From the NCBI GenBank assembly GCA_900315125.1, contig OMXT01000019.1:1240-65239 (forward strand): a stretch of DNA of 64,000 nucleotides. Reading direction: 5' to 3'. Below are positions 27,106 to 64,000 of this stretch, piece by piece. Numbering within the stretch: the stretch's first letter is position 1; each line of letters begins with the position of its first letter. A program made the position numbers and the translations under genes. Under the pieces are notes generated by a model. It made no database searches and was not told the DNA's origin. It saw only the letters and a list, made by a program, of their open reading frames with translations. The DNA is from an uncultured Eubacteriales bacterium. GTDB lineage: Bacteria; Bacillota; Clostridia; Peptostreptococcales; Anaerovoracaceae.

Positions 27106-27209
27106 AATGCCATTTTGTTCTGACAGCTTTAGTCATGAGAGGGAACGGATACCTAACTGGATGTTAGATTATCTGTACCCTACAAATCTATTGTAGGAGG
27201 AGAGTGCGA

Positions 27210-27506: not shown

Positions 27507-27580
27507 ACTATTGTCTGTTATCATAAACAGCCGGTTTCCCCGCTGGTATTGATTGGCAGAGTAACTGGAGGTGGACTATT

Positions 27581-28265
27581 ATGAAGAAACTGATAAACGT
27601 CCGAACAATGTTTTTTGTGATCATTATAGCTGCTGCAGTTGTCATTATTTCTTTCGTGTTTTCTGCTGATACAGAGAATAGCAATGCAAAGACGCCAGAT
27701 CAAGAGGCAGCGCTCCAGTTGTCTATGGAAGTACAGAAGACAAGAGGAGATTTGCAAAGTAAAATGGGTAAGGACAGTATTTACCCACTTTATTATTCAA
27801 TGAAGTCAGAGGAAACAGTAATAATGCTGATATAGAGAAGAATTTGATAAAGGAAAGGGCACTGCGCTGGTATGCGGATAATCATGGGGTCACTGTTACG
27901 GACAAAGAACTCAGTGAATATCTCGATGATTTTTTAAGGATGCAAAAGACAGTGACGAATATGAGCAGTATCAGAAGGCAGCTGCGTCGCTGGGGACAAG
28001 TTTTGAAAATGTCGTACTAAGGGACAGAGAATCCTATCGAGATGTTCTTCTCCGCTCAAAGCTTTTCAGCCAAATCCAGGATGTTCCCGAGGGAGAAGTG
28101 TCGGAAGAGGAAGCGGAAAAGAAAAGACAGGATGATTATGCCAGGTGGGATGAATTCGTGGCGGATGCTGTGTCGGAATATAGAAAGTCTGATCAGTTTG
28201 CTGAGTTCAAAACAGAATATGCAGCCTGTGAAAAACAATATAATAAAGAGGTACGGAAACAGTAA
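27581..28265 (+). pseudogene. membrane-anchored protein gene broken by two frameshifts
   Basis: The signal-anchor N-terminus (MKKLINVRTMFFVIIIAAAVVIISFVF) ends at TAG 27833-27835. Coding-looking sequence continues in a second frame (EKNLIKERALRWYADNHGVTVTDKELSEYLDDF). After a T6 run at 27930-27935 it continues in the third frame (DSDEYEQYQKAAASLG...EKQYNKEVRKQ) to TAA 28263-28265. Confidence 0.6.
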
Positions 28266-28385
28266 TCTGCCGTGAAAGCGCACATGAAAGGGAGAATCCT
28301 GCAGACCTGCTGCAATCAGCGGTAAGCAGGATTTTTTCATGCACAGGGGCTACCGGGACTGACTGATTTGTGATATAGTAAAAGA

Positions 28386-28415
28386 AGTTACTAACTCTAG
28401 AGTTACTAACTCTAG
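28386..28415. repeat. 15-bp perfect tandem duplication containing a 14-bp palindrome, upstream of the ATPase gene
   Basis: AGTTACTAACTCTAG occurs twice (28386-28400 and 28401-28415). The junction forms the perfect palindrome TAACTCTAGAGTTA (28392-28405). It lies 35 nt upstream of ATG 28451. Confidence 0.8.
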
Positions 28416-28450
28416 AGTATACAATTAAACGGCAAAGAAGGGACAATAAT

Positions 28451-29818
28451 ATGTTTTATGGGAGGAACAGGGAACTAAAAGAGCTGGAACGTAGGTGTTC
28501 CAGCGGCCGGAAAGAGTTCGGCGTGATATACGGCAGACGAAGGATCGGCAAATCTGTACTGGTCAGACATTTCTTTGAAGGGAAAAGGGGAGTCTTTTTT
28601 CAGGCGAAGCAGGATACGTCCTATGGTAATCTCCGTTCCTTCTCCTACGAACTGAACAAAGTCATGGGTCTTCCGCTTTCCTTCGTTTATTCAAGCTGGC
28701 AGGAAGCTTTTGATGCAGTGCTGCAGGCGGCAGGAGACGAAAGATTCCTGTTTGTCATCGATGAATATCCGTATATTGTTTCCCAGGATCCATCTTTCCC
28801 TTCGACCTTACAAGAATACGTGGACCGGGCACCGAATAATATGTTTATGCTGATCCTTGGGAGTGACGTTTCTTTCTTAAAGAATGAGCTGGAGGATAAA
28901 AAATCCCCCCTGTATAAGAGACGCACTTTTGAGATGCGGATCGGTAAAATGCCTTTTGATGAAGCGGTTTTATTTCTGACAGGAATGCCGACAGAGGAGA
29001 AGTGTGCATATCTTTCCCTGATGTCCTCCTACCCGTATTATCTTGCGTCGATTGACAGGGCTGCCTCTTTTGAAGAGAACATGGAGCGGCTCTTTTTCAA
29101 TGAATTCGGTACATTCTTCAATCTGCCGGATCAGGTTCTTTCAAATTCCACAAAAGTTCAGGACGTGTATAACGCCATTCTTCGGTCGGTTGCTCACCGA
29201 CATTATACGGTAAAGGATATCAGCATGGATATCCATGAAGAGAGCAGCAAGGTCTCCAAATATATCAAGACCCTTTTGAAAAGTGAGATTCTGGAAAAGC
29301 GGTCGACGTTTATGGGAAATAAAAACAGCCACTATTATGTGATTTCCGACCCCATGCTGCGATTCTGGTATCTCTTTATCTATGACAGACAGGAACTGAT
29401 ACGGGTCAATGGAGAAAAGGTGCTTTCCAGCTTGTCAGTTATGATAAAAGATTTTCTGGACAGAGGCTTTGAAGATACGGTGCTGCTTTTTCTGGATCAG
29501 GAGAACAGAAAAGGAAATCTTCCAGGTGTATTTCCGGAAATTCAGAATTTCAGGGCTGATAAGACCACACTGGGGCGATCTGTGGAAATCGACGGTCTTT
29601 CCCGCTCCGGAGATACGCTTCTGGTAGTGGAATGCAAATACCGAAAGAAATATTTTTCGAATGCCATGCTGGAGCACCTCAGGGAAAGCGCTTCGATCTT
29701 TTCGGAAAAGCTCAGCAGGCAGTATTATATCTTCTCAAAATCCGGGTTTTCTTCAGATATAGAACAGGCGAACAATGTTCACTTGTATACCGCAGAGGAC
29801 ATGTTCGGATTTGAGTAG
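28451..29818 (+). CDS. ATP-binding protein (archaeal-type ATPase with DUF234-like C-terminus)
   Basis: MFYGRNRELKELE...YGRRRIGKS (Walker A) and FVIDEYPY (Walker B). The length and C-terminal region are typical of the Arch_ATPase/DUF234 family, recognised from memory. Confidence 0.65.
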   Translation: MFYGRNRELKELERRCSSGRKEFGVIYGRRRIGKSVLVRHFFEGKRGVFFQAKQDTSYGNLRSFSYELNKVMGLPLSFVYSSWQEAFDAVLQAAGDERFLFVIDEYPYIVSQDPSFPSTLQEYVDRAPNNMFMLILGSDVSFLKNELEDKKSPLYKRRTFEMRIGKMPFDEAVLFLTGMPTEEKCAYLSLMSSYPYYLASIDRAASFEENMERLFFNEFGTFFNLPDQVLSNSTKVQDVYNAILRSVAHRHYTVKDISMDIHEESSKVSKYIKTLLKSEILEKRSTFMGNKNSHYYVISDPMLRFWYLFIYDRQELIRVNGEKVLSSLSVMIKDFLDRGFEDTVLLFLDQENRKGNLPGVFPEIQNFRADKTTLGRSVEIDGLSRSGDTLLVVECKYRKKYFSNAMLEHLRESASIFSEKLSRQYYIFSKSGFSSDIEQANNVHLYTAEDMFGFE

Positions 29819-29876
29819 GCAGAGGATCAGCTAAATTCGGACGGAAGTACATCAGCTGCAATCTGAAAACTCAATG

Positions 29877-29905
29877 TTGACAGGGCGAATCACCTATGGT
29901 ACTAT
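29877..29905 (+). promoter_or_regulatory. sigma-70-type promoter upstream of rimP-nusA-infB operon
   Basis: TTGACA (29877-29882), 17-nt spacer, TACTAT (29900-29905). It is followed by the stem-loop AAGAGTGGG/CCCACTCTT (29940-29962) in the leader. Confidence 0.55.
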
Positions 29906-30049
29906 AGATGTGCTGGAATTTTAATACTGGCAGGCAAACAAGAGTGGGCATTACCCACTCTTGAATTATTGTAGGGGATGAATCACGTGCCGAAGATTGC
30001 ACTGCAATCGGAGTGAGATATCGTCCCGCGGGGTCAGGAGAACAGAAGC

Positions 30050-30520
30050 ATGGCCAAAATACAGGTAAAAGATATCGTATCCGGCATCCTCTCAGGATTT
30101 CTGGAGGAGCACGGGCTGGAACTTTATCATACGGAATTCAGGAAAGAAGGAAAGGAATGGTATCTGTCCGTATTCATCGACCGCAAGGACGGGGAATACG
30201 TCAGCACCGACGACTGTGAGACGGTCAGCCGGTATCTCAGTGAGGAGCTGGATAAGACGGATCCCATACCCCAGAACTATTATCTGATGGTCAGCTCACC
30301 GGGCATGGACCGGCAGCTGTACGAACAGAAGGATTACGACCGGTTTACCGGGGAGGTGGTGGACGTCCGCCTCTATAAGAGTTTTGAAGGAAGTAAGGAG
30401 TATCAGGGAACGCTGCTGGGACTCACCGGCGGCGAAGTGATAATCCGGACGGAAGATAACAGAGAACTGAAATTTCCGCTGGAGCAGGTATCCAAGACCT
30501 GCCTTGCAGTCATTTTTTAG
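30050..30520 (+). CDS. rimP: ribosome maturation factor RimP
   Basis: 156 aa with LEVSSPG-like SSPGMDRQL; position directly upstream of nusA. Confidence 0.9.
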   Translation: MAKIQVKDIVSGILSGFLEEHGLELYHTEFRKEGKEWYLSVFIDRKDGEYVSTDDCETVSRYLSEELDKTDPIPQNYYLMVSSPGMDRQLYEQKDYDRFTGEVVDVRLYKSFEGSKEYQGTLLGLTGGEVIIRTEDNRELKFPLEQVSKTCLAVIF

Positions 30521-51908: not shown

Positions 51909-53102
51909 ATGTTTATTGATTTTTTCTATACGCTGAGAGCTTACGGACTGGACGTGTCCCTGGATGAATGGCTTTGTCTCATGGATGCGCTGGATCAGGG
52001 ACTGGCGGAGAATTCTTTGCTGGAGTTTTATTATCTCTGCCGCAACGTGCTGGTCAAGTCCGAGTCGGACTACGATACGCTGGACCAGGCATTCGGCGCT
52101 TATTTTCAGGGAATCGAGACCATCGATGATATCCCCGATGAGCTGAAACAGTGGCTGGCGGAAGATGGTCTGGAACGGGACCTGGAGGATATGCCCGACT
52201 GGGCGAAAGAATACGATATGGACACCCTGCGGAAGATGTTCGCTGAGCGTCTTGCGGAGCAGAACGAACGGCACAACGGCGGGAACTACTGGGTAGGGAC
52301 CGGCGGTACGTCGCCCTTCGGAAACGGAGGATGGAATCCGGCGGGGATACGGGTGGGCGGCGCCAGCCGCCATAGATCTGCGGTGCAGGTGGCAGCAGAC
52401 CGGAACTTCCGGGATTTCCGCGAAGACAACGAGCTGGACACCCGTCAGTTTCAGATGGCCTTCCGCAAGCTCCGTCAGTTTTCTTCCCTCATCGACGCGG
52501 CGCCCACGGAGCTGGATGTGGATGAGACCATCGACGCCACATGCGATAACGCAGGTCTCCTGACCCTGGTCTACGAAAAGCCTCGGCGCAACACGGTCAA
52601 GCTGCTGATGCTTATGGACTCCGACGGCTCCATGCAGGAGTACAGCGAGCTGTGCAGCCATCTGTTCCAGGCGGCTGACCAGTCCTCCCATTTCAAGGAC
52701 TTCCGGACTTATTATTTTCACAACTGCATATACGATCACGTCTACACGGACCCGTACTGCGTGAACGGCCGGTGGATCGATACCCAGTGGCTCTTTGGGA
52801 ACCTGGACTCCGAGTACAAAGTCATCCTTGTTGGGGATGCGGCGATGTCGCCCTATGAGCTCTACTCTCCCGGAGGCAACCTGGACTGGTACGCCTATAA
52901 CGAGGAACCGGGCATCGACTGGCTCTGGAAGTTCCGCCGCCGCTACCGCAATTCCGTCTGGCTGAACCCCATCCCCGCCCGCCGCTGGGAGCATGCCTGG
53001 GGCGCCCGCACCATCTCCATGGTCCGGGACGTCTTTCCCATGTTCGAACTGACCCTGGACGGCTTGGACGCCGCCATCCGCAAGCTGATGAGCGGCAGGT
53101 AA
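51909..53102 (+). CDS. VWA-domain protein, CoxE-like (MoxR partner)
   Basis: The N-terminus FFYTLRAYGLDVSLDEW is typical of CoxE-like proteins. The C-terminal VWA-like region starts LLMLMDSDGSM. It lies 6 nt downstream of the MoxR gene. Confidence 0.7.
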   Translation: MFIDFFYTLRAYGLDVSLDEWLCLMDALDQGLAENSLLEFYYLCRNVLVKSESDYDTLDQAFGAYFQGIETIDDIPDELKQWLAEDGLERDLEDMPDWAKEYDMDTLRKMFAERLAEQNERHNGGNYWVGTGGTSPFGNGGWNPAGIRVGGASRHRSAVQVAADRNFRDFREDNELDTRQFQMAFRKLRQFSSLIDAAPTELDVDETIDATCDNAGLLTLVYEKPRRNTVKLLMLMDSDGSMQEYSELCSHLFQAADQSSHFKDFRTYYFHNCIYDHVYTDPYCVNGRWIDTQWLFGNLDSEYKVILVGDAAMSPYELYSPGGNLDWYAYNEEPGIDWLWKFRRRYRNSVWLNPIPARRWEHAWGARTISMVRDVFPMFELTLDGLDAAIRKLMSGR

Positions 53103-53184
53103 TCCCGCGTCCGCAAGCTGATGAGCGGCCGGCAGTCCCGCGTCCCGGACCTGTCTGGTAACTTTGGGCTTGTCGGACTGCAGC

Positions 53185-54033
53185 TTAATCAATAGTGTGA
53201 ACAAGAGGAAGAACTACGCCGCGGATAATCTGATCTATCAGCGCTGTATTTATTCCGCCGTCCCTGCTGTCGCCGGTGACTATCAGATTATAACCCGGTG
53301 TGATGCCGTTCTGCTGATAGAGTTTCATCTTTTCTGAAGTCGATATGCGGTAGCCTTCTTTGTTAAGAAGTCCAAGGTGCTCCCAGTACAGTTTCGTTCC
53401 GTCACGAAGCAATATCGTAAAGTCAGGGTACCGCAGCACTTTTTCCCGATCGCCGTTTATCAGCACCAGGCGTTCATCGTAGCGGAATGGGATTTTGTAG
53501 CGCTTTAAAAGATTGTAAATTATCAGATCGCCCTTAGATCGGACCTTTGTTCCATCCACGGCGATACTGTCCATGTCCGGAAATGTCATAGGGTTCTTCT
53601 TGTATTCTGCCAGAGCCCATTCTTTGATTTCCTGCTTGCTGAAATCTGTCTGAAGTGCTGCAGGAAGCAGTCGATAAGAATCCGGGAGAGACTGCGTTAC
53701 GGATTCGGGGTCATATTTTTGGTATGCGCTCAGCATCTCAGTCAGGAGCTGCTGGTTTTCAACGAGACGTTTGCGTATCTCGCGGTAGACCTTTGCTTTC
53801 TTGAGCGACTGCACCTGAGTGTTTCCAGGTCCTCCAAGATATTTCCATTGTCGTTTGCGCTTGCCGTCAACCTGTTTCGAATTCACATGATAATATTTGA
53901 GCTTATTATTTTCTATGCGGCAAGCCAGGCATCCATCTTCGTTTTCACTGGAGAATGGAATCTTGTCGACTATTTGAATTAAAGCTTTAATGCGATCCAG
54001 CTCGAGGTGAGCTTCCGTAATGAATGAGTTCAT
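53185..54033 (-). CDS. hypothetical protein with PD-(D/E)xK / Vsr-like nuclease signature in the C-terminal half
   Basis: ATG 54033 follows AAAGGAA. The C-terminal pattern VRSKGDLIIYNLLKRYKIPFRYDE ... RYPDFTIL ... KLYWEHLG resembles restriction-endonuclease-fold cores. The gene is visibly AT-richer than its neighbours. No family name recognised. Confidence 0.5.
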   Translation of the reverse strand: MNSFITEAHLELDRIKALIQIVDKIPFSSENEDGCLACRIENNKLKYYHVNSKQVDGKRKRQWKYLGGPGNTQVQSLKKAKVYREIRKRLVENQQLLTEMLSAYQKYDPESVTQSLPDSYRLLPAALQTDFSKQEIKEWALAEYKKNPMTFPDMDSIAVDGTKVRSKGDLIIYNLLKRYKIPFRYDERLVLINGDREKVLRYPDFTILLRDGTKLYWEHLGLLNKEGYRISTSEKMKLYQQNGITPGYNLIVTGDSRDGGINTALIDQIIRGVVLPLVHTID

Positions 54034-54265
54034 AGGCGATTTCCTTTCACAGATAAGTAATGACGATAAGTAACAGCTTATGCTATGCATCTTTAGCGTT
54101 TTCACCACCTTAGCACACGAAAACTGTTATGAAAAGGTTTTTCTTGTATATTTTTAAAAGAATACAGAATTATAAGGTAAAATTATCATTACCAAATTAG
54201 ATAAATCGCAATTTCTTAGCGTTACCATACAAGTGTTTTTTACCAAACTATGGAGAAGCAGCCGC

Positions 54266-54760
54266 GGTAGACAACCCTGGCCGTAATTTGACGCGATGGT
54301 AGACCCAGGAGGGCGGTATAGGTCTACCATCGCGTCCGAGGCAGGCCGCGGTAGACAACCCTGGCCGTGATTTGATGTTAGGGTAGACCCAGTAGGGTCG
54401 TTTAGGTCTACCATCGGGTCTGAGACAGGCTGCGGTAGACAACCCTGGCCGTGATTTGATGTTAGGGTAGACCCAGGAGGGTCGTTAGGTCTACCATCGG
54501 GTCTGAGACAGGCTGCGGTAGACAACCCTGGCCGTGATTTGACGTTAGGGTAGACCCAGGAGGGTCGTTTAGGTCTACCATCGCGACCAAGACAGGCTGC
54601 GGTAGACAACCCTCGCTGCAATTTGACGTCAGGGTAGACCCAAGAGGGCAGTATAGGTTTACCATCGCGTCCGAGGCAGGCCGCGGTAGACAATCCTCGT
54701 TGCAATATAGAGCAAGGGTAGACTCAGAGCCCGATATGGTGGGAGAAAGTTCGGACCATC
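54266..54760 (+). repeat. tandem array, ~5.9 copies of an 84-bp unit (left array)
   Basis: The GGTAGACAACC register is at 54266, 54350, 54434, 54517, 54601 and 54685, so the period is 84 with one 83-bp copy. Each unit is GGTAGACAACC - 21 nt - GGTAGAC - 16 nt - GGTCTACC - 21 nt. The last copy is degenerate. Confidence 0.9.
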
Positions 54761-54761
54761 G

Positions 54762-54790
54762 TTGTTTTTTCTCGTATTCTGCGGTACAAT
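54762..54790 (+). promoter_or_regulatory. candidate promoter of the Nudix-jetABCD operon
   Basis: TTGTTT (54762-54767), 17-nt spacer, TACAAT (54785-54790). It lies just after the array and 50 nt upstream of ATG 54841. Confidence 0.4.
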
Positions 54791-54840
54791 GACGGGAGAA
54801 AGTTTGTGAAGGTTAGAACGCAAAAATCGCAGGAGAAACA

Positions 54841-55845
54841 ATGTGCGCGCAGAATGACAGAAAAACAGACGGGTCCAGCAGAGGCCTGAAAATAGAGAAG
54901 TCCATGGCCAAACAGGTCTTTGATGAGAAATTCCTTAAGGTGTATGATCTGCAGTATGAACCGGGCCGGCATTATTTTGACGCTACCCGGCGCAGCGCCG
55001 AAGACCTGGTGGCGCTGAAGGAGGACGGAGAATTCCGGAGCATGCTCCCGGATGCGGTCAGCTGTTTCGTGATCATTGATAACGGCAGCGAGAATAGTGA
55101 CGGCGCGAGCAACGGCGCAGCAAGAGCTGCAGGCGCACTGTCACCGGACATGATGTCGCCGGATGAGATCGCGTCAGCGTGCGCGGCGAACCGTGCGTCA
55201 GCGTCAGCGAGCGCGGCAAACCGTGCGTCAGCGTCAGTGAGTGCAGTAAATCGCGCGGCAGACGGTGTAGCAGACAGCGCGGCAAACCATGCGGCAGACG
55301 GCCCTTTGCTGCTGCTGGCTCGGGAGTACAGGTATCCGGCGGGCCGGTATCTTCTCAGCGTGCCCGCGGGGCTCCTCGATCCGGAGGATCAGCAGGAGAA
55401 GGATCCGCTGGTGAACGCGGCTGCCCGGGAGATCCACGAGGAAACGGGGATCGTCATCGGGGAGCATGACCGGATCTGGGCAGTGGATTCTTTCGTATTC
55501 AGTACGCCGGGCATGACCGATGAGAGCAATGCGCTGATGTGCGCTGTGATCAACGGGAACGCGAGAGCAGCGGAGGATCCAGGGGCTGCGGCGGAAGCGG
55601 GAGCAGGAACGCCGGGAACAAAGCCCGGGCAGATCTTTGTTTCCGGACACAGAGATACGGCAGAAGCCATCGGCCTGACCCAGTCCGGAGCCGTCGGATC
55701 AGAGAAGTTCGACGGCTTCGTGCTGCTGAACCGGGATGAGGCGAAGCAGGTCCTGGAAGAGGGCAGAGATTCCGAGGGCAACCCTTATCCGGTCTACACA
55801 TGGGCAGCCCTGATGTATTTCCTTTCGGACATGTGGAAACGGTAA
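54841..55845 (+). CDS. Nudix hydrolase (ADP-ribose-pyrophosphatase-like) with low-complexity insertions
   Basis: Nudix box GLLDPEDQQEKDPLVNAAAREIHEETGI. ATG 54841 follows AGGAGA (alternative ATG 54904). The stop lies 4 nt before the jetA ATG. An in-frame 30-bp tandem repeat at 55171-55296 encodes AANRASASAS-type segments. Confidence 0.75.
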   Translation: MCAQNDRKTDGSSRGLKIEKSMAKQVFDEKFLKVYDLQYEPGRHYFDATRRSAEDLVALKEDGEFRSMLPDAVSCFVIIDNGSENSDGASNGAARAAGALSPDMMSPDEIASACAANRASASASAANRASASVSAVNRAADGVADSAANHAADGPLLLLAREYRYPAGRYLLSVPAGLLDPEDQQEKDPLVNAAAREIHEETGIVIGEHDRIWAVDSFVFSTPGMTDESNALMCAVINGNARAAEDPGAAAEAGAGTPGTKPGQIFVSGHRDTAEAIGLTQSGAVGSEKFDGFVLLNRDEAKQVLEEGRDSEGNPYPVYTWAALMYFLSDMWKR

Positions 55846-55849
55846 TCAT

Positions 55850-57337
55850 ATGACGAACCTTTTTGACATGATCCCGGAAGGGTTCTTTAATCTGCTGAGC
55901 AGCGGGAGCAACAGCAGGGTATATGCAGACTGCCTGGAGCTGATCTATGACGAGTTCAGCCATGAAATATCTTACAGAGCCAGAAGGGAACGGATCAGGG
56001 ACATTCTGGCTTCTTATTTTCTTGAGCACAGGCTGGAGCCGGCAGACCAACTGGAACCGGCAGACGCATCGGGCGACGGTACTTCCGCGTCTGCCGCTCC
56101 CGCGGGTCTCAGCCCTCAGGATACCGCCAATGCCGTGCTGCGCCGCTTTACGGATCCCAGGATCGGTTGGTTAGAGGAGGACAATGACGACGAGACCTAC
56201 GAACGCCACATCGTCATGACCGAGTCCGGCATTCGGCTGGCGGAGCTGATGATCACGCTGAAAAAGCCAGAAAAAGAAGAATACACATCCTATATATTCG
56301 CTATCAGAAACTCCCTTTTGAGCCGGGAGCAGTGGGAGGCTGATCCCTATGTCAATGTGCTGAGGGATGTTTACCGGAACGCCCGCCTCCTGTCCAAATC
56401 CCTTAAACGTCTGTCTACATTTATCAAGAACATCATACAGGACATGGTCCAGGAACAGAGCCTGGAGAGCCTGACGGAGAACCTGCTGTCCTATTGCGAG
56501 GGCGATTTCATCCGGGAATACGCCCGTCTTTCCAAACAGCAGAACATCCGCATATACCGGCGTATGATCCAGGAAAAGCTGGATCATTTCCGGGATGACG
56601 AGGACACGCTGGAGCAGCTGACCAGTGCCTGCGCGGCAGAAGAAGAGCTGAGCGAAGAAGGAGCGCGGGAGCATGTGCTGGACATGATCCAGGGAACGCG
56701 TCAGTTCCTGAGTGATGATTATGACCAGATCATGAGGGATATAAAGCACAAAATCAATCTCTACCTGACCATCGCTATCGGGCGGGCAAGATTTCTGCGC
56801 AGCCGCTCCGCTGACGCCCGAGGCAGCGTGGAACAGGCGGTCCGTCTGCTGGTGAGCGAAACAGAGGCAACAGGACTGATGGACGAACTGCCCGAAGAAC
56901 AGCGAGCCATGTTTTTGTTCGATCAGAATGACTTTCTCGATGAAGGATCTTTGCGATACCCGGGACGCCAGCTTGCCATACGGAAAAGTGTATCACAGGT
57001 CTACCAGGAAATGACGGAGGAGGACATCGCTGAGGCGCGCAGAGCTCAGGAGAAAGCAGCAGCCAATCCCTATTCCCTTAAGCGGGTGGGAGAATATATT
57101 GAAGAGCAAATGGGCGACGTACGCCAGATCGAAGCGGAGCAGCTGCCGATGAACAGCCGGCGGGAACTGCTCATGGCTCTGGCTGCCGCTGTATACGGGC
57201 AGGAGCTGGGCTATGAGGTCATACCGGAGGAAGGCTATGTAGAGTCGCAGCAGCTGATGATCCGCAATTTCGCGATTCGAAGGAGAACGATGCAGAGAAG
57301 TGATATAGTGGAGGGGACGCAAACGCATGAATTTTGA
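55850..57337 (+). CDS. jetA: Wadjet JetA (kleisin-like, DUF3375-type)
   Basis: 495 aa, first of four overlapping genes whose sizes and order (about 495/245/1088/518 aa) match JetABCD. Assigned mainly by operon architecture. Confidence 0.7.
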   Translation: MTNLFDMIPEGFFNLLSSGSNSRVYADCLELIYDEFSHEISYRARRERIRDILASYFLEHRLEPADQLEPADASGDGTSASAAPAGLSPQDTANAVLRRFTDPRIGWLEEDNDDETYERHIVMTESGIRLAELMITLKKPEKEEYTSYIFAIRNSLLSREQWEADPYVNVLRDVYRNARLLSKSLKRLSTFIKNIIQDMVQEQSLESLTENLLSYCEGDFIREYARLSKQQNIRIYRRMIQEKLDHFRDDEDTLEQLTSACAAEEELSEEGAREHVLDMIQGTRQFLSDDYDQIMRDIKHKINLYLTIAIGRARFLRSRSADARGSVEQAVRLLVSETEATGLMDELPEEQRAMFLFDQNDFLDEGSLRYPGRQLAIRKSVSQVYQEMTEEDIAEARRAQEKAAANPYSLKRVGEYIEEQMGDVRQIEAEQLPMNSRRELLMALAAAVYGQELGYEVIPEEGYVESQQLMIRNFAIRRRTMQRSDIVEGTQTHEF

Positions 57338-58064
57338 AGAATACTGGGACAGCTGCACGGCGTCGGAGCGGGATCAGTTCCAGCGGACGGTCCGCCGGCT
57401 CCTGAAAACCACGTTTATTGTCCGTGACAAAGACGAGATCAGCAAGTCCGCTTATTTTTTCGTGTCGAAGCGGCAGGAAATGTTCACGGAATACCTGAAA
57501 TACATAGGTTTCGACGTAGCATTGGACAGGGACAACGGTGTAGTCATGCTCCGCAATGCAGCTGACTCTGCCGAATTTGGCAGGATCCAGTCCAACCGGG
57601 TGGCGCTGAAAAAGATCGACAGCATCATTCTCTGCAGCCTGTGGACCATCTATGCAGGGAAGATGAGGGACGGACTGGTAAAGAACGTCATGGTTTCTGT
57701 GGCTGAGCTGCGCTTTGAGCTGGAGAAGTTCGGCGTAAGAGAACAGGTGAACCGGAAGGTTCTGGAGTCATCTCTTAAACTGTTTTCCAAGTTCAATCTG
57801 CTGAAGATACACGGTGCTGTAGGAGAACCGGACTGCATGATACAGCTGTACCCCTCCATGCAGTTTGCCCTGGATACGGAAGCATTCCGAAAGTTCGTGA
57901 AGTCTGCGGCAGAACGCATGAACGAGAACCGGGAAGAGATCAGCTGGGTAATGTCTTCGGAGGAGTCATTGGAGGACGATGGGGCTGACCCGGATACGGA
58001 TAGTGAAGAGTCTGATCCTGAGGATGAGTTCTCAGAAAACGAATCGGAGGAGGAACGCCCATGA
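57327..58064 (+). CDS. jetB: Wadjet JetB (KITE-like, DUF4194-type)
   Basis: 245 aa with an acidic C-terminal tail; overlaps jetA by 11 nt. The segment LLKTTFIVRDKDE...YLKYIGFDVALDRDNGVVMLRN fits the DUF4194 pattern from memory. Confidence 0.7.
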   Translation: MNFEEYWDSCTASERDQFQRTVRRLLKTTFIVRDKDEISKSAYFFVSKRQEMFTEYLKYIGFDVALDRDNGVVMLRNAADSAEFGRIQSNRVALKKIDSIILCSLWTIYAGKMRDGLVKNVMVSVAELRFELEKFGVREQVNRKVLESSLKLFSKFNLLKIHGAVGEPDCMIQLYPSMQFALDTEAFRKFVKSAAERMNENREEISWVMSSEESLEDDGADPDTDSEESDPEDEFSENESEEERP

Positions 58065-61000
58065 AGGTCGTAAGCCGCAAGACAGCTACGAGAATGCAGA
58101 TCATAAACTGGTCTCGCTTTCAGAACGTAACATTCCGCATGGAAGGCTCCGTGCTGCTGACGGGAGCGAACGGCAGCGGGAAATCGACGATCCTGGACGC
58201 TGTCACATACCTGCTGACTGGAAATACTCAATTCAACAAGGCGGCAAAAGACAGAGACCGCACCGTGCTTTCCTACGTCCGTGGCGACACCAACAGCAAC
58301 GGTGCCCAGCGTTTTCTGCGGCAGGGCAGCGTCATATCCTATCTGGCTATGGAGTTCCGCTCGCCAACAGAGAAGGAAGTCTTCGTCTGCGGCGTATGCA
58401 TCGAGTCCGCCACAGAAGCGGATTACCGACCGAATTGGTTCGTGCTTCATGACACATCGCTTGAGGATGTCAATTTCGCCCGGGTGGAAGAGGGAAGGCT
58501 GATCGTCACGCCCAGGAATGAGCTGACCGCAGGCGGGCGCCCTGTCAATGCCCGTGCGTTCATGGCCAGAGATACGGGCGTCCGGCAGGTCATGCGTGCC
58601 ATGGGACTGCGCTACGATCCCCGGAAATACCGTTCCAAGCTCATCCGCATGCTGGCATTCAATCCGGAAAATAATATTGACCGGTTCATCCAGGACTGTG
58701 TGCTGGATCCGGGCAAAGTCGATTCTCTGAAGGAAGTCCGGGAACAGCGGGAGAAGTTCGAGGAGCTGAAGCGCCTTTACGACAATCTGCGGGGTTGCAG
58801 GGATAAACTGGAGATCTGCGAGCAGCGCGCCCGGGATTACGAAGGGCGGCGGAGGCGCCTGCGCATCGATGAGATGATGCTGGATCATCAGGAGCTCTGC
58901 GCCCTGAAGCAGGAGACAGAAGAGAGCCAGCGCCGGGAGGCCTTTCTGGAACAAAGGCTTGTTCGCCTGGGTGACCAGATCCTGTCCGCGGAAAGCGATC
59001 TGAAAGATGCGGAGCAGCGCCTTATCGTCGCCAGGACCAATGACGTTTATTCCGGCATGAAGAATACGATCAGCGAACTGGAACGCCAGAAGGATCGAAT
59101 GGAAGGGGAGCAGCAGCGGTACCGGGAGCAGATCCGGGAGCTTACTGCGCTCAGAAAGAAACTGGAGTCATTCCTGCAGATGAAGGCGGAAGGTCCAGAA
59201 GAGAATTCCATGAGACTCAGTCCTCAGGACTCCCAGGCGATCACAGAGATGGACCAGGCGGGAAACATGACTGAAGAGCAGAAGGAAGGCTCTTTCCGCC
59301 GCATTGCGGAGGAGGGGAGCAGACTCACACGTTATCTGGGACGGCAGGTCTGGTCCCTGGAAAATCAGTGTGAAGAATATCGGCAGAGACGGGAAGAGCT
59401 CAGCAAACAGATCCACTCTCTGGAAGCGAATATTCAGGTGTTTCCAAAGGAGGCGGAGTCCGTCCGGCAGACACTGGCGTCCGAACTGGAGAAAAGAGGC
59501 ATTCATACTGACGTGCGCTTCGTCGCTGAGCTCGTTCAGGAGGTAAAAGACCCGGGATGGAGAAAGGCGATAGAGACGTTCCTGGGACGGCGCCGGTTCA
59601 ATATCATCATCGACGGAAAATACTGCGGGGACGCGCTGGAGATCGTGAGGGAGAAGTCCCTAAACGGTACAGGCGTCATCATTACGGATCAGCTCCCCGA
59701 CCGGGAGGAAGAACCGGGATCCGCGGCGGAGCAGCTGACGGTTCCCAATATCTTTGCCCGCCGCTACCTGAATTATCTGCTGAACGGGATCCATCTCTGT
59801 GATACGCTGGACGAGCTCCATGAGCATCCGGCAGGAGCGCTTATGAAGGACGGCATGCTGGCAAAGAGCTATGCGGCGTCCCGGATGAATATGAGAAAGA
59901 CCGTTGTCTACTTCGGCAAAGACGCGATCCGCCTGCAGCTCCGGTCTGCCCGGGAGGAAATGAAGCAGCTGGAACAGGAGATGGAAACGGCAGAGAAGGC
60001 TTTGTCCCAGAACCGCAGCAGAGCAGATGCGCTGCGCCGCATCGATTTTTCCGCGGACCGCTATCACATGGATGCTCCGGAGCGCAGCAGGGACACCGCT
60101 GCCCGTATAGACCGGACAGAAAATGAAATCCGCGAGATCCAGGATAACCCGGACTTTCTGGCCGTAATACAGGAAGTGGAGAATGCGGAAGAGGCAAGGA
60201 AACGTGCGGAGCAGGAGCGGAACCGGATCCAGAAGGACCAGATGACATGCCAGCTGAAAGCGGAGGAAGAACGGGCGAAGCAGCAGGAGCTGTCGGAGCA
60301 GATCTGCGCTGCACAGGAAGCCTGCCGGCAGTCCCAGAGCCAGTATCCGGAGCTGGTGGATGTCATGAAAAAGGAATACGAAGAACGGCGCAGGCGCCTT
60401 GGACGGCCAAGAGTCCTGCAGCAGCAGACGGTACAGAAACTGAGGGGCGAACTCAGTGAAAAATACGAGAATGCGCTGATCTCTGCCCAGCTGGACTACT
60501 GCCGGCTGGCGGGTGCGGATATGAATCGGTTCGGTCCGTCCTATATCAGCTTTTACCGAGATGAGTACCGGGATGTAGCGAATGTCAGGATCGAGGAAGC
60601 TCAGAGCCGCCTGGACAGTCAGGGCGACCGGCTGGAGAGCGCGTTTATGACGGACTTCGTGGCGGAGCTGAATGAGAAGATCCGCGCTGCCCGTGGGGAG
60701 CTCAGCGCCATAAACAGGGAACTTCGGGAACTGCCCTTTGGGCAGGATACCTATCGGTTCGTCGTCAGGGAAAAGGCGGACCGGGCGCCCTTCTTCCGGA
60801 TCTGCCGCGGGCTGGAGAAGTATATGGACAATGCGGAAGCCTACATGAATTCTGACCGCAGCGACGAAGCCATGGAGACGGATATCCGTGAGTTTATGAA
60901 CATGATCCTCGATGAAGAGGACGAGTCAGAATATACGGATTACCGAAAATACTTTACATATGATATGGAGATCACCAGCCGCCAGGGCGGGGAAGAAGTC

Positions 61001-61327
61001 CAGGCGGAGCTCTCGCGGAAGCAGGGCTCGGCCAGCGGCGGCGAAAAACAAACGCCCTATTTTATCATTCTTGCGGCGAGTCTGATGCAGTGCTATCCCA
61101 GAAACGTCTGCTGCGCCCGTCTGGCCTTTATCGACGAAGCCTTCTCCGCCATGTCGCCGGAACGGATCGAGCAGATGGTTCGTTACTTTAACGACAACGG
61201 ATTCCAGGTCATCTACTCCGCGCCTCCGGAGAAGATCGGGAGCATCGGGGAGCACGTGGGTTCCATCGTGAGCCTCGTCATGACCGGAAGGTACACCAAT
61301 GTGGTAGAGGGGCTGATTGAAGTATGA
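58061..61327 (+). CDS. jetC: Wadjet JetC (SMC/MukB-like ATPase)
   Basis: Walker A GANGSGKST at the N-terminus, about 700 aa of coiled coil, then C-terminal ASGGEKQ signature and Walker B LAFIDEAF. ATGA overlap with jetB. Confidence 0.85.
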   Translation: MKVVSRKTATRMQIINWSRFQNVTFRMEGSVLLTGANGSGKSTILDAVTYLLTGNTQFNKAAKDRDRTVLSYVRGDTNSNGAQRFLRQGSVISYLAMEFRSPTEKEVFVCGVCIESATEADYRPNWFVLHDTSLEDVNFARVEEGRLIVTPRNELTAGGRPVNARAFMARDTGVRQVMRAMGLRYDPRKYRSKLIRMLAFNPENNIDRFIQDCVLDPGKVDSLKEVREQREKFEELKRLYDNLRGCRDKLEICEQRARDYEGRRRRLRIDEMMLDHQELCALKQETEESQRREAFLEQRLVRLGDQILSAESDLKDAEQRLIVARTNDVYSGMKNTISELERQKDRMEGEQQRYREQIRELTALRKKLESFLQMKAEGPEENSMRLSPQDSQAITEMDQAGNMTEEQKEGSFRRIAEEGSRLTRYLGRQVWSLENQCEEYRQRREELSKQIHSLEANIQVFPKEAESVRQTLASELEKRGIHTDVRFVAELVQEVKDPGWRKAIETFLGRRRFNIIIDGKYCGDALEIVREKSLNGTGVIITDQLPDREEEPGSAAEQLTVPNIFARRYLNYLLNGIHLCDTLDELHEHPAGALMKDGMLAKSYAASRMNMRKTVVYFGKDAIRLQLRSAREEMKQLEQEMETAEKALSQNRSRADALRRIDFSADRYHMDAPERSRDTAARIDRTENEIREIQDNPDFLAVIQEVENAEEARKRAEQERNRIQKDQMTCQLKAEEERAKQQELSEQICAAQEACRQSQSQYPELVDVMKKEYEERRRRLGRPRVLQQQTVQKLRGELSEKYENALISAQLDYCRLAGADMNRFGPSYISFYRDEYRDVANVRIEEAQSRLDSQGDRLESAFMTDFVAELNEKIRAARGELSAINRELRELPFGQDTYRFVVREKADRAPFFRICRGLEKYMDNAEAYMNSDRSDEAMETDIREFMNMILDEEDESEYTDYRKYFTYDMEITSRQGGEEVQAELSRKQGSASGGEKQTPYFIILAASLMQCYPRNVCCARLAFIDEAFSAMSPERIEQMVRYFNDNGFQVIYSAPPEKIGSIGEHVGSIVSLVMTGRYTNVVEGLIEV

Positions 61328-62880
61328 GTAATAAATTGCAGCCAGGCACAGCATCCTCCCCGGACGAGAACATGCTGACCGCCCGCGAACAGGACGCAGC
61401 GATGCCCCTCAGCAAAAGACAGAAAACAATCTTATCCCTCCTGCTGAATAAATACGAGTCAAGCCGCACGTACCGGGGCGAAAACCAGGTCCGCCAGACA
61501 TTCGCCATTACGCCGGAGCAGGTGATGCCGGATTACCATTCCGATTTTGCCGATGTGGCCGACGTCGAAATATTCGAGCGGGAGCTGCGGGATCTGGAGC
61601 GGACCGGGCTGATCACAACTGAAGAAAAAAGCGGAGAAACAGCCCGTATTGTCGCTGCCGCCGGAAAATTTTCTGACTATTACAGTCTGCTCGGTCGCCG
61701 GGAACTGAGGGATCAGGAGAACCAGGAACTCGCTTACTACAAAGGCCTGCTCGGCCGTCATCCGGTGATGGACGGGTTCTGTGAGGAGCAGATCCGGCGC
61801 CTCTCTGATGGGAAGAAAGCCAGATATCCGCTGGATGAAGCGAGGGATATCCTGAAGGCCATGGAATATATTCTGACTAATGAGGAGGACATCCTGGAAA
61901 GGGAGCTTTCCATCGAGCTCTATAGAGATTCCAAGCTGTTTGCCGCCAGGTACCGGAGCAGAGTCGTCCGGCTGCTGGAACGCTACGGCGACGGGGCGGT
62001 CAGGGCTTTGTCAGAGGAGCAGATGTCCCCTCGGGAGCGGGAGGAACAGATCCTGGAAGCCCACGGCATCTATGCTAATCCCACGTATATTTATATGAAA
62101 GGGTCCGGGCGGCTGTATTTCTGCAGCGATCCGCATGTTCTCGGTGATTCGCATATCCATAGCGATTCGTCCGCGCCTGCAGGAGACGACGGGCTGTCAA
62201 AAAGTGGGGGAGCGGCTGCGGACACTGTAATGACCGTGCAGCCGGATTTCGCTGTGGCGTTGTCCTCCGAAGCGCTCCGCCGACTCGTTAGAGTGGAGAT
62301 CGATTCGGATACGGTGATCACTGTGGAAAACCTGACATCCTTCAGCCGGATGAAGCCGGAGGTGGTTCTGCCTGAGACAGCAGTTCCCAGCGAAGCATCT
62401 GGCGATGTTTCGACCCAGCCCGCTTTCCTTATTTATCTCAGCGGGTACCATAATCTGGACAAGCAGAAGTTTCTTCAGCTGATCCGCAGGCGGGATCCTG
62501 CCTGCGCCGGTGCCGCCGAGAAGGATCCCGCCGGGACTGCTCCTGCCCGCGCAGTCCCGAATTGTTCGATTCCGAGCCTTTCAGATGACAGAGCTCCGGA
62601 TCTCACCGATATTCGCTGGCTGCACTTCGGCGATCTGGATCCGGATGGATTCGACATCCTTGAGAATCTGAAGAGCCGGACAGGTCTGCCATTTCAGCCT
62701 TATCGGATGGACGCGTCTCTGCTCCAGAAGTACGAGAACTATGGACGCCCTTTGAATGCCAACGACCGTACCAAGGCCGAAAACCTGATCGAGCAGGGAA
62801 TGTATGTGCTCCAGCTGTCCTACATGCTTGAGCACGACTGCAAGCTGGAGCAGGAAATCATAAGCTGGAAAGAATTGTGA
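61324..62880 (+). CDS. jetD: Wadjet JetD (Toprim-domain nuclease subunit)
   Basis: C-terminal Toprim-like HFGDLDPDGFDILENLK. ATGA overlap with jetC. At 518 aa it is longer than typical JetD because of low-complexity inserts. Confidence 0.75.
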   Translation: MSNKLQPGTASSPDENMLTAREQDAAMPLSKRQKTILSLLLNKYESSRTYRGENQVRQTFAITPEQVMPDYHSDFADVADVEIFERELRDLERTGLITTEEKSGETARIVAAAGKFSDYYSLLGRRELRDQENQELAYYKGLLGRHPVMDGFCEEQIRRLSDGKKARYPLDEARDILKAMEYILTNEEDILERELSIELYRDSKLFAARYRSRVVRLLERYGDGAVRALSEEQMSPREREEQILEAHGIYANPTYIYMKGSGRLYFCSDPHVLGDSHIHSDSSAPAGDDGLSKSGGAAADTVMTVQPDFAVALSSEALRRLVRVEIDSDTVITVENLTSFSRMKPEVVLPETAVPSEASGDVSTQPAFLIYLSGYHNLDKQKFLQLIRRRDPACAGAAEKDPAGTAPARAVPNCSIPSLSDDRAPDLTDIRWLHFGDLDPDGFDILENLKSRTGLPFQPYRMDASLLQKYENYGRPLNANDRTKAENLIEQGMYVLQLSYMLEHDCKLEQEIISWKEL

Positions 62881-62973
62881 GTTGATTCCCTGCTCGAAAG
62901 AGCTTTGGTCAGACTCCGCGAATCGTCTTGCCGTCCTCGTTTTGCTGTCTGTGCATTGCTGTTCTCGACTTGC

Positions 62974-63385
62974 CGTCTACCCGATGGCGTATAGTAGCCG
63001 AGGGTAGATAACCATCGGTCTGTAAACTGCCCATGATAGAGTAAAACCGGGCGTATAGGTCTACCCGCCGGCGTTTAGCGGTCGCGGGTAGACAACCATC
63101 GGTCAGTAAATGGCTCATGGTAGACTAAATCAGGGCCTACAGGTCTACCCGTTGGCGTATAGCGGCCGAGGGTAGACAACCATCGGTCAGTAAATGGCTC
63201 ATGGTAGACTAAATCAGGGCTTACAGGTCTACCCGCCGGCGTATAGCAGCCGAGGGTAGATAACCATCGGCCAGTAAACTGCCCATGGTAGAGTAAAACA
63301 GGGCGTATAGGTCTACCCGATGGCGTATAGCAGCCGCGGGTAGATAACCGGCAGCCGGCAAACGGTATGTGGTAGATGGCCCAGA
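62974..63385 (+). repeat. tandem array, ~4.9 copies of an 84-bp unit (right array)
   Basis: The GGTAGA(C/T)AACC register is at 63003, 63087, 63171, 63255 and 63339, an exact 84-bp period. The motif layout matches the left array (GGTAGAYAACC - 21 - GGTAGAC/G - 16 - GGTCTACC - 21). Copies 2 and 3 are nearly identical. Confidence 0.9.
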
Positions 63386-63432: not shown

Positions 63433-64000
63433 TTAGCCAAGCAATTGTAAGAATTTTTTATAGGCGGAAGGAATGGCGTATATACGGGAAATGTCGGAAA
63501 CAGGGACCCAAAGCAAGCGGGCGCCCGAGGAGCTTTCCGAATCAGCAATATCAGAAGCATCCGCGGAAACTTCTGCATCTGCAGACTGCGTGATTGCCGC
63601 CTGCCAGTCTGCTGCCCATCCGCCCGCTTCCTGCCTGTCTGCGGACAAGGCGTCTGCAGCCCGCCTGCCTGCATTCCAGCCATCGACAATGATCTGGTAA
63701 CCGGTCATGTGCCACTCGATATGTGAAAATATGTGTTTCGCCGGCGCAGTCTTCTGGATGCTGCCGACGTGAAAACCCAGGGACTCCACCCATTGGCACG
63801 CCTCCGCTTCAGTAAGTGTTCCCACTAGATTAGGAAATTCGAACATGCCCGCAAGGAGACCTTCCGGCGGACGATGCCTGAGCAGGACATATTCATCGCA
63901 AATAGGCGATGCGGCTGCCGTGTCAGTGAACTGCGGCGATTCCGGCTTTACTGCTGTCATCCCGGCCCGCACGTGCCCCCGGACCACAAGCACCGTCCGG
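63433..64000 (-). CDS. mutY: A/G-specific adenine glycosylase MutY, C-terminal (Nudix-like) part; 5' end outside window
   Basis: EGLLAGMFEFPN and KHIFSHIEWHM motifs of the MutY C-terminal domain. The frame stays open to the window edge. It contains an A/D/S-rich insertion of about 50 aa. Confidence 0.75.
   Translation of the reverse strand, partial: RTVLVVRGHVRAGMTAVKPESPQFTDTAAASPICDEYVLLRHRPPEGLLAGMFEFPNLVGTLTEAEACQWVESLGFHVGSIQKTAPAKHIFSHIEWHMTGYQIIVDGWNAGRRAADALSADRQEAGGWAADWQAAITQSADAEVSADASDIADSESSSGARLLWVPVSDISRIYAIPSAYKKFLQLLG

What the first reader, a model, noticed from the sequence alone, without database searches (positions are those of the whole stretch)
54266..63385. Nudix-JetABCD module bracketed by two arrays sharing motif geometry but not linker sequence
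Both arrays are in the same orientation and have the same 84-bp period. Both place the three heptamers at the same offsets: 0, +32 and inverted +55. When I align consensus units by hand, the motifs match but the three linkers match at only 5/21, 6/16 and 6/21 positions, which is chance level. Within each array the linkers are nearly identical. This pattern means motifs and spacing are under constraint while the rest drifts. It is what is expected for arrays of protein-binding sites (iterons, centromere-like or nucleation sites) maintained independently at the two borders. Simple duplicated junk or recent direct repeats of an insertion would not give it. Possible roles are insulation or boundary elements for an SMC-type loop extruder, self-marking of the chromosomal locus, regulation of the operon, or recombination borders of a mobile defence cassette. 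No recombinase is present. I know of no description of such arrays flanking Wadjet loci.
Basis: partly seen in the sequence, partly recalled or inferred. Interest (0 to 1): 0.85.

Follow-up and report, generated by a model that had tools for sequence, protein, structure and literature searches.

The report
Heptamer repeat arrays bracketing Wadjet operon
Two variable-copy 84-bp repeat arrays lie on either side of an anti-plasmid Wadjet operon in an uncultured rumen bacterium and share only three precisely spaced GGTAGAC sites; they look like protein-docking platforms, but a link to Wadjet is unproven, and the same genome has a similar-sized unrelated array at a non-defence locus.

Summary
Array A (54261-54727) and array B (62975-63377) have an 84-bp period and the same orientation. 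Both place GGTAGA(C) sites at offsets 0, +32 and inverted +55. Linkers between the arrays match at chance level (17-18 of 58). Within arrays, motif columns vary less than linkers (Fisher p=0.0013). The arrays bracket a NudF-like Nudix gene plus a type I jetABCD operon. Sites and spacing therefore appear to be selected, most plausibly as a docking platform for an unidentified DNA-binding protein. Array A fills the gap between two divergent candidate promoters. The Wadjet-specific reading is weak. Three nearest JetA lineages (55-56% identity) have neither arrays nor Nudix. Array A varies between strains (1.5, 4.5 or 5.5 units). A third array with an 83-bp period, also variable in copy number and unrelated in sequence, lies about 56 kb away beside a peptidase gene. 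Arrays of about 84 bp are thus a habit of this genome. Tri-heptamer pattern scans of species-representative genomes, metagenome and viral contigs, and blastn of both arrays against plasmid and phage records, found no relatives. I could not obtain the genome-wide distribution in the source organism. Verdict: a real, selected, orphan repeat element of unknown reader. It is moderately interesting.

The parts
54261..54727 (+). Array A: five full units (84, 84, 83, 84, 84 bp) plus a degenerate 3' partial unit that keeps sites 1 and 2 but lacks site 3. It holds 17 GGTAGA-type sites. Copy number varies between strains (1.5, 4.5 or 5.5 units).
62975..63377 (+). Array B: starts with a lone inverted site, followed by four full 84-bp units and a degenerate 3' partial unit. 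It holds 15 sites. It is identical in all five conspecific loci that cover it.
54266..54276 (+). Example of site class 1: GGTAGAYAACC, preceded by C at -4. The class is identical in both arrays. GGT and ACC can pair around an AGAYA loop.
54382..54388 (+). Example of site class 2: (A)(G/T)GGTAGA(C/G), at offset +32.
54400..54412 (-). Example of site class 3: inverted site, read on + as GT(A/T)TAGGTCTACC (GTTTAGGTCTACC in this unit), at offset +55. With site 2 it forms a 7-8 bp inverted repeat with a spacer of about 15-17 nt.
54130..54260 (.). AT-rich segment between the 282-aa gene and array A. It holds a candidate minus-strand promoter (54211-54182) for the 282-aa gene and a weaker plus-strand match (54154-54183).
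54762..54790 (+). Candidate promoter of nudix-jet: TTGTTT, 17 nt, TACAAT (8 of 12, below the scan threshold, read by eye). It begins 39 bp after the last site of array A.
   Evidence: sequence; inference
53185..54033 (-). Divergent 282-aa gene. Its C-terminal part resembles a PD-(D/E)xK nuclease domain (PADLOC PDC-S68 C-terminus, HEAT_CxxC_PDDEXK). There are no Pfam, NCBIfam or PHROG hits.
54841..55845 (+). NudF-like Nudix hydrolase with an Ala/Ser-rich insertion encoded by 30-bp repeats. The true start is probably ATG 54904. Its stop lies 4 nt before the jetA start.
55850..57337 (+). jetA
   Evidence: PF18982, E=2.7e-98
57327..58064 (+). jetB
58061..61327 (+). jetC (SMC-type ATPase)
61324..62880 (+). 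jetD (518 aa, with low-complexity insertions)
63433..64000 (-). 3' part of the convergent mutY gene. Its stop lies about 55 bp from the end of array B.

Best explanation
A and B are intergenic repeat arrays that vary in copy number. Their 84-bp unit is a fixed-geometry set of three GGTAGA(C) sites: two direct and one inverted, about 32, 24 and 28 bp apart centre to centre. The period of 84 bp equals eight helical turns at 10.5 bp per turn. SHOWN: the sites, their class-specific flanks and their offsets are the same in both arrays, while all other positions are at chance identity. Within arrays the sites vary less than the linkers. Array A gains and loses whole units between strains that are otherwise 99.6-100% identical. 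INFERRED: the sites are read by an unidentified sequence-specific DNA-binding protein that binds cooperatively as an oligomer. Linkers drift and are homogenised within each array by unit gain and loss. Array A exactly fills the space between two divergent candidate promoters (the 282-aa nuclease-like gene and nudix-jetABCD). Array B fills the convergent jetD/mutY gap. The most likely effect is therefore cis-regulation or insulation of this operon: multi-site occupancy upstream, and possibly in-register bridging of A and B into a loop. Bridging would explain why period and offsets must match while linkers need not. The arrays are not a general Wadjet feature. Building arrays of about 84 bp is a wider habit of this genome.
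For: Arrays, period and site enrichment. Offsets and site classes. Linkers at chance and motif columns protected (p=0.0013). Copy-number variation in array A. Position between promoters. The family occurs nowhere else in the 64-kb window or in about 10 kb of flanking sequence. There is no Rfam family. Folding energy is no better than with shuffled linkers (z -0.5 to -1.3 on the + strand; -1.1 to +1.0 on the - strand), which argues against a structure-only element. As an analogy only: clusters of the same heptamer in both orientations flank a promoter upstream of ParA-type partition cassettes in Chloroflexota contigs. This shows such sites do act as protein operators or centromeres elsewhere.
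Against: No binder is identified, and no transcription-factor gene adjoins either array. The single-sequence model of the 282-aa protein was too poor to use (pLDDT 48). One strain keeps only 1.5 units of array A. A third array with an 83-bp period and an unrelated sequence lies at a non-defence locus, so the period may be generic. The nearest jet loci lack arrays. All evidence comes from one species. I estimate adjacency to a single operon has p of about 0.04-0.09 if arrays were scattered at random, given about 23 intergenic gaps of at least 100 bp.
Confidence: 0.4

Rival explanations
1. The arrays belong to a dispersed repeat class of this genome, comparable to REP/BIME elements or MIRU-type variable-copy repeats. 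The heptamers would be recognition sites of a repeat-propagating or structural protein, and the position next to Wadjet would be incidental.
For: A third variable-copy array with nearly the same period (83 bp) lies at a peptidase gene: three arrays in about 74 kb surveyed. All three arrays end in a degenerate 3' partial unit. Every site contains GTAG, the tetranucleotide at REP 5' ends (own knowledge). Site 1 is followed by a hairpin-prone linker. Contigs often break in array A.
Against: No solitary unit or further GGTAGAC array occurs in the window or its flanks. Array C shares no sequence with A or B. The pattern scan of 185,579 species-representative genomes gave only 14 singleton hits, all unrelated. 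Sites run direct, direct, inverted, whereas BIMEs alternate. No RAYT or transposase gene lies in the window.
Confidence: 0.3
2. The arrays act as RNA. They would be transcribed on the + strand as 5' leader and 3' trailer of the nudix-jet mRNA, or as a separate repeat RNA like the toxI antitoxin arrays of type III toxin-antitoxin systems. The heptamers would form alternative stems or protein-binding sites that control stability, termination or a protein of the operon.
For: Both arrays are co-oriented with the operon. Linker 1 forms a hairpin closed by ACC and GGT in core units of both arrays, with p of about 0.01-0.02 each against shuffled linkers. The hairpin forms on the + strand only and needs G:U pairs. 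In that stem 96% of cells pair, with two compensatory pairs. A weak + strand promoter match lies upstream of A. A weak hairpin plus a T-run follows A. Array A has 5.5 units, the same count as toxI (own knowledge).
Against: Only two independent lineages contribute, so the covariation is thin. Edge units break the hairpin. Whole-unit folding energy is not better than with shuffled linkers. The post-array hairpin is not better than shuffles. No Rfam hit was found. No ToxN-like gene is present.
Confidence: 0.1
3. The arrays are cis sites for the Wadjet SMC machine itself: boundary or anchor elements for loop extrusion, loading sites, or self-marking of the locus.
For: The evidence is position only: the only two arrays of this family in the surveyed sequence bracket the operon in the same orientation.
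Against: The three nearest JetA lineages have no arrays. The current model of Wadjet is independent of DNA sequence (PMC10586767). Array A copy number is unconstrained. JetD's extra length is low-complexity sequence, not a DNA-binding domain.
Confidence: 0.05
4. The arrays are borders or recombination sites of a mobile defence cassette, or remnants of a plasmid's iteron or centromere region, possibly acting as an incompatibility decoy.
For: The arrays are in direct orientation on both flanks. Similar layouts are known: iteron arrays flank rep genes in F and P1, and attC sites keep structure but not sequence (own knowledge). The same heptamer forms ParA-associated clusters in other phyla. An AT-rich block adjoins A. 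A transposase gene lies beyond mutY.
Against: No recombinase, Rep, ParA or ParB gene was found in or beside the bracket. GC content of the operon equals that of its flanks. All 22 contigs read that carry the 282-aa gene show the operon next to it or break in array A; none shows an empty site. No plasmid, phage or viral match was found. The arrays share only 7-13 bp blocks.
Confidence: 0.07

Closest known systems
Iteron arrays that bracket the initiator gene in F (incB/incC around repE) and P1 (incC/incA around repA) (own knowledge)
   Same: Two arrays of one short protein-binding motif lie on either side of a gene block. The motif is conserved while spacers differ between arrays. An AT-rich block lies next to one array.
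   Different: Iterons are 17-22 bp at a period of about 22 bp and lie next to a Rep gene and DnaA boxes. Here the unit is 84 bp with three sites in mixed orientation, no Rep gene is present, and the setting is chromosomal core (polC-nusA-infB-pnp neighbourhood).
Plasmid or phage partition centromeres built from short repeats: F sopC (12 x 43 bp), pSM19035 heptads, P1 parS heptamer boxes (own knowledge). The GGGTAGACC clusters upstream of ParA in Chloroflexota contigs seen here belong with these.
   Same: Heptamer-scale sites occur in direct and inverted orientation, repeated many times, and are read by a small dimeric protein. The sites overlap or adjoin promoters.
   Different: No parA or parB gene lies nearby. 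The sites here are 23-32 bp apart inside a long unit. The Chloroflexota loci were retrieved because they contain the heptamer, so the resemblance is selected for.
REP/BIME elements with RAYT transposases (own knowledge)
   Same: Intergenic position, tandem clusters, a GTAG core, hairpin potential, location between convergent genes (array B), and contig breaks.
   Different: No dispersed copies were seen in 74 kb. The orientation pattern is direct, direct, inverted. No RAYT gene was seen. The host is a Clostridia-like Firmicute.
MIRU-type variable-copy intergenic repeats of mycobacteria (own knowledge)
   Same: Tandem intergenic units of 40-100 bp, whole-unit copy-number differences between strains, and several loci per genome (A, B and C here).
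   Different: MIRU loci share the unit sequence. Here A and B share only three short sites, and C shares nothing.
toxI-type repeat arrays of type III toxin-antitoxin systems (own knowledge)
   Same: About 5.5 direct repeats lie immediately upstream of, and co-oriented with, a defence gene.
   Different: toxI units are about 36 nt and near-identical, and they are followed by a ToxN endoRNase gene. Neither is true here.

Membership tests
Type I Wadjet (JetABCD) | jetA, jetB, jetC and jetD present in one operon | tested here: met
   Pfam hits: JetA E=2.7e-98, JetB/DUF4194, JetC SMC-type, JetD_C. PADLOC hits: JetA1, JetB1, JetC1, JetD1.
Iteron replication origin | Adjacent Rep initiator gene | tested here: not met
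   No Rep family hit in flanking ORFs.
Iteron replication origin | Iterons of 17-22 bp at a period of about 22 bp, next to an AT-rich unwinding element | tested here: not met
   The period is 84 bp with three 7-11 bp sites. An AT-rich block is present next to A only.
Partition centromere (parS, parC, sopC) | Linked parA/parB-type genes | tested here: not met
   No ParA or ParB hit among the ORFs scanned with Pfam around the bracket and elsewhere in the window, and no homologue of the Chloroflexota partition proteins.
REP/BIME | Many dispersed copies per genome | tested here: inconclusive
   None occurs outside the two arrays in the 64-kb window or about 10 kb of flanks. The rest of the genome could not be reached.
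REP/BIME | GTAG followed by an imperfect palindrome, with units in alternating orientation | tested here: inconclusive
   GTAG is present in every site. A hairpin follows site 1 only. Orientation is direct, direct, inverted.
MIRU-like variable-copy repeat | Whole-unit copy-number polymorphism between strains | tested here: met
   Array A has 1.5, 4.5 or 5.5 units. Array C has 1 or 4 units.
MIRU-like variable-copy repeat | Unit sequence shared between loci | tested here: not met
   A and B share only the sites. C is unrelated.
CRISPR array | Conserved repeats separated by unique spacers | tested here: not met
   All segments between sites are near-identical within an array.
Integron attC / CALIN | R''/R' cores RYYYAAC and GTTRRRY, plus an integrase | tested here: not met
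   The cores are absent from the units (sequence). No integrase hit was found among the flanking genes or the other window ORFs scanned.
Type III toxin-antitoxin (toxIN-like) | ToxN, AbiQ, CptN or TenpN endoRNase gene directly downstream of the repeats | tested here: not met
   The downstream gene is a Nudix hydrolase. PADLOC gave no hit for it.
Any Rfam RNA family | Match at the gathering threshold | tested here: not met
   There were 0 hits in the window at the gathering threshold, and only sub-threshold chance hits on the arrays.

The most novel reading that the evidence does not exclude
The two arrays are sequence-specific cis elements that work with the genes they bracket. One version: a platform bridged in register into a loop that isolates or silences the Wadjet operon. 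Another: anchors or boundaries read by the SMC complex. Either would be the first cis-acting DNA element tied to a Wadjet system, which is otherwise regarded as independent of DNA sequence.
Probability: 0.08. Interest if true: 0.85.

Novelty: new variant of a known kind. Interest (0 to 1): 0.42.

Why it matters
If the sites are a protein-docking platform that controls or insulates a Wadjet operon, this would be a rare view of how an SMC-type defence system is regulated. It would also provide a defined DNA element for pull-down of the regulator. If instead this genome scatters arrays of about 84 bp across many intergenic regions, the finding points to a repeat class in rumen Clostridia that I found no description of and that has a fixed unit length. 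Such a class would be relevant to strain typing and to assembly breaks. In either case, the pattern of conserved short sites at fixed offsets with randomised linkers is a clear natural signature of selection on geometry.

Tried and rejected
1. Pattern scan GGTAGAC-N20-30-GGTAGAC-N12-20-GGTCTACC. Species-representative genomes gave 14 singleton hits, metagenome contigs 53 and viral contigs 0. By BLAST and nhmmer none is related to the arrays. TRF on two of the genome hits showed unrelated short-period repeats.
2. blastn of both arrays against plasmid and phage records found nothing.
3. I translated the open minus-strand frame of array A and searched 1.84 billion protein representatives for arrays miscalled as genes. 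The only hit was an unrelated repeat protein.
4. Synteny through VWA homologues failed. Relatives at 70-79% identity do not share the VWA-to-mutY neighbourhood, so no empty site could be defined.
5. All 22 contigs read that carry the 282-aa gene show the operon next to it or break in array A; none shows an empty site.
6. The closest Nudix homologue (58% identity) lies in a context without jet genes.
7. Structure prediction of the 282-aa protein gave pLDDT 48 and was not usable for fold search. Its PDB sequence search gave nothing.
8. Literature searches for Wadjet with tandem repeats, Wadjet with Nudix, the heptamer alone, and 84-bp repeats found nothing relevant.
9. A coding reading of the arrays is rejected. 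The period 84 is a multiple of 3, but one unit is 83 bp, gene callers skip the region, and no protein homologues exist.
10. CRISPR, attC, tRNA-like and type III antitoxin readings are rejected on defining features (see the membership table).


Full report
OBSERVATION. Tandem Repeats Finder reports two arrays with an 84-bp period: A at 54261-54697 (5.2 copies, 89% matches) and B at 62975-63349 (4.5 copies, 86% matches). No other repeat in the window has a period above 33 bp. GGTAGAC occurs 31 times in the window against 3.9 +/- 2.2 expected, and 25 of those are in the arrays. The longer form GGTAGAYAACC gives 12 hits against 0.99 expected, 11 of them in the arrays. Cutting the units in register shows three sites per unit in both arrays: offset 0, offset +32, and inverted at +55. 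Both arrays are in + orientation. The invariant core is GGTAGA (30 of 32 sites perfect). Each site class keeps its own flank in both arrays: C-N3-GGTAGAY-AACC for class 1, GGTAGAC-CT on the inverted strand for class 3, and A at -2 for class 2. Consensus linkers match at 4/21, 8/16 and 5/21. In total 17-18 of 58 positions are identical, which is chance level. Within arrays, 4 of 52 motif columns vary against 35 of 116 linker columns (Fisher p=0.0013).

CONTEXT. The bracketed genes are a NudF-like Nudix hydrolase carrying a repeat-encoded Ala/Ser-rich insertion, followed by jetA, jetB, jetC and jetD of a type I Wadjet system. Upstream and divergent lies a 282-aa gene whose C-terminal part resembles PD-(D/E)xK domains of candidate defence proteins. 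Downstream and convergent lies mutY. The window is chromosomal core sequence (polC, nusA, infB, pnp). Named proteins among relatives are from Clostridiales, Firmicutes or Anaerovoracaceae metagenome-assembled genomes. Samples are rumen or gut metagenomes. Array A runs from about 50 bp upstream of a minus-strand promoter match for the 282-aa gene to 39 bp upstream of a TTGTTT-17-TACAAT candidate promoter for nudix-jet, which I read by eye in the sequence. It therefore fills the space between the two promoters. Array B fills the convergent jetD/mutY gap. No intrinsic terminator was found there.

REALITY AND DYNAMICS. The same locus occurs in more than 20 independent assemblies. Array B is identical in all five loci that cover it. 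Array A has 5.5 units in the window, L016 and L019. It has 4.5 units in L015, L021, L022 and L086, and 1.5 units in L088. Flanks in these loci are 99.0-100% identical, and part of the mismatch count reflects array A aligned out of register. The extra unit is a hybrid of its neighbours, and the short allele joins unit 1 to the terminal partial unit. Both are what unequal recombination would produce. Many contigs end inside array A.

IS IT LINKED TO WADJET? The heptamer triplet pattern was scanned across three collections. It gave 14 hits in 185,579 species-representative genomes, 53 in metagenome contigs and none in viral contigs. All are single occurrences or pairs with no similarity to the arrays by BLAST or nhmmer. 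TRF on two of the genome hits showed unrelated short-period repeats. Plasmid and phage records gave no match. The nearest JetA relatives are only 55-56% identical. Three such lineages have jetA close behind an unrelated gene (gaps of about 25 to 180 bp), with no Nudix gene and no arrays. The nearest Nudix homologue (58% identity) lies in a context without jet genes. No conspecific contig lacks the operon. Relatives at 70-79% VWA identity do not share the neighbourhood. The gain-and-loss test was therefore uninformative. Within the window and about 10 kb of fetched flanks the family occurs only at the two borders. With about 23 usable intergenic gaps, I estimate that two randomly placed arrays would flank one operon with p of about 0.04-0.09.

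A THIRD ARRAY. I fetched about 8 kb upstream of the window through the arginine deiminase gene. This revealed array C (L102 6766-7097): period 83 bp, four units plus a degenerate partial unit, 89% matches. It lies between a 128-aa ORF and the peptidase S11 gene whose 3' part opens the window, roughly 160 bp upstream of a TTGACG-17-TATTAT promoter. It has no GGTAGAC and no similarity to A or B beyond chance: the best rotation gives 34 of 83 identical against a null of 32.7 +/- 1.8. Its copy number also varies, with 4 units in L102 and L103 and 1 unit in L104. It has its own inverted heptamer pair, TCGCCAC-N17-GTGGCGA. Arrays with a period of about 84 bp are therefore a habit of this genome and are not confined to defence loci. 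This weakens the argument from the shared period. The shared sites and offsets of A and B still stand.

DNA SITES OR RNA STRUCTURE? No Rfam family matches. RNAalifold and partition-function folding pick out one element common to both arrays: a + strand hairpin across linker 1, closed by ACC (tail of site 1) and GGT (head of site 2). It has two compensatory pairs and uses G:U pairs, so it does not form on the minus strand. Against shuffled linkers it is unusual in core units (p of about 0.01-0.02) but is lost in edge units. Only two lineages contribute to the covariation. Whole-unit folding energies are not better than with shuffled linkers (z -0.5 to -1.3 on the + strand; -1.1 to +1.0 on the - strand). 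A hairpin plus T-run after array A is no better than shuffles. An RNA role is a minority possibility.

AN ANALOGY FOUND BY ACCIDENT. Several pattern-hit loci from Chloroflexota carry GGGTAGACC/GGGTCTACC clusters around a TTGACA-17-TATAAT promoter. These lie directly upstream of a ParA-type ATPase gene and a small basic protein, next to antirepressor genes. That is a partition cassette whose operator or centromere uses the same heptamer. No homologue of those proteins is encoded in the window. The loci were selected by the heptamer, so this shows what such sites can be, not what they are here.

CONCLUSION. The best reading (confidence about 0.4) is that A and B are variable-copy platforms of fixed-geometry binding sites for an unidentified DNA-binding protein. 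The linkers are free to drift and are homogenised by unit turnover. Placement suggests cis-regulation or insulation of nudix-jetABCD and the divergent nuclease-like gene, possibly by bridging A and B in register. The main rival (about 0.3) is a genome-wide repeat class with no functional tie to Wadjet. Roles in SMC loop extrusion, self-marking or cassette mobility have no support beyond position. The current model of Wadjet needs no DNA sequence element (PMC10586767). The element is real, selected and without relatives in the collections searched, and its reader and purpose remain unknown.

Noticed in passing
L102 6766-7097 (about 1.0-1.3 kb before window position 1; same species): Third tandem array, 'C': 83-bp period, 4 units plus a degenerate partial unit, unrelated in sequence to A and B. 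It has its own inverted heptamer TCGCCAC-N17-GTGGCGA. Copy number varies (4 units in L102/L103, 1 in L104). It lies upstream of the peptidase S11 gene promoter.
   Followed up: yes
L007 3469-3560 and L028 2225-2315 (Chloroflexota contigs retrieved by the pattern scan): Clusters of GGGTAGACC/GGGTCTACC in alternating orientation around a consensus promoter. They lie directly upstream of a ParA-like ATPase gene and a basic protein of about 152 aa with no Pfam hit, next to P22_AR_N antirepressor genes. This is probably a partition cassette of a mobile element that uses the same heptamer.
   Followed up: partly
window 54736-54751 and 54789-54804: Two copies of a 16-mer (ATGGTGGGAGAAAGTT and ATGACGGGAGAAAGTT), 53 bp apart, bracket the candidate nudix-jet promoter. 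They may form an operator pair distinct from the heptamer sites.
   Followed up: no
window 62923-62977: Pyrimidine-rich stretch with a period of about 14 bp (TCGTCTTGCCGTCC-like, 3.9 copies), lying between the jetD stop and the first site of array B.
   Followed up: no
window 55171-55296: 30-bp in-frame tandem repeats inside the Nudix gene encode an Ala/Ser/Asn-rich insertion that is absent from homologues of about 220 aa. JetD (518 aa, against profile lengths of about 410) also carries several low-complexity insertions.
   Followed up: partly
window 53077-53145: 33-bp tandem duplication spanning the stop codon of the VWA (CoxE-like) gene. The last 23-26 bp of the coding end are repeated just downstream.
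   Followed up: partly
L016 7616-8364 and L018 3303-6571: In two conspecific assemblies jetB is split (97 + 154 aa) and jetC is split (504 + 560 aa). These are either inactivating mutations of Wadjet in some strains or assembly errors.
   Followed up: no
L015 20066-21005 (just beyond mutY, outside the window): A DDE transposase gene (IS66/IS240-like Pfam hits) lies where several contigs end, so an insertion sequence sits immediately right of the locus.
   Followed up: no
window 26300-30500: Low-GC segment (0.42-0.45 against about 0.57) between polC and nusA. It holds an ATPase_2/DUF234 gene (28451-29818) and a perfect 15-bp tandem repeat (28386-28418). It may be an insertion.
   Followed up: no
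window 53185-54033 (-): 282-aa protein with no Pfam, NCBIfam or PHROG family. Residues of about 180-300 match the C-terminal PD-(D/E)xK-like region of PADLOC candidates PDC-S68 and HEAT_CxxC_PDDEXK. It is always found next to array A in this species.
   Followed up: partly
L102 7303-7339: Perfect 17-bp tandem repeat (CCGCTTAGCAAGGTGAG x 2.2) in the leader of the peptidase S11 gene, downstream of array C.
   Followed up: no
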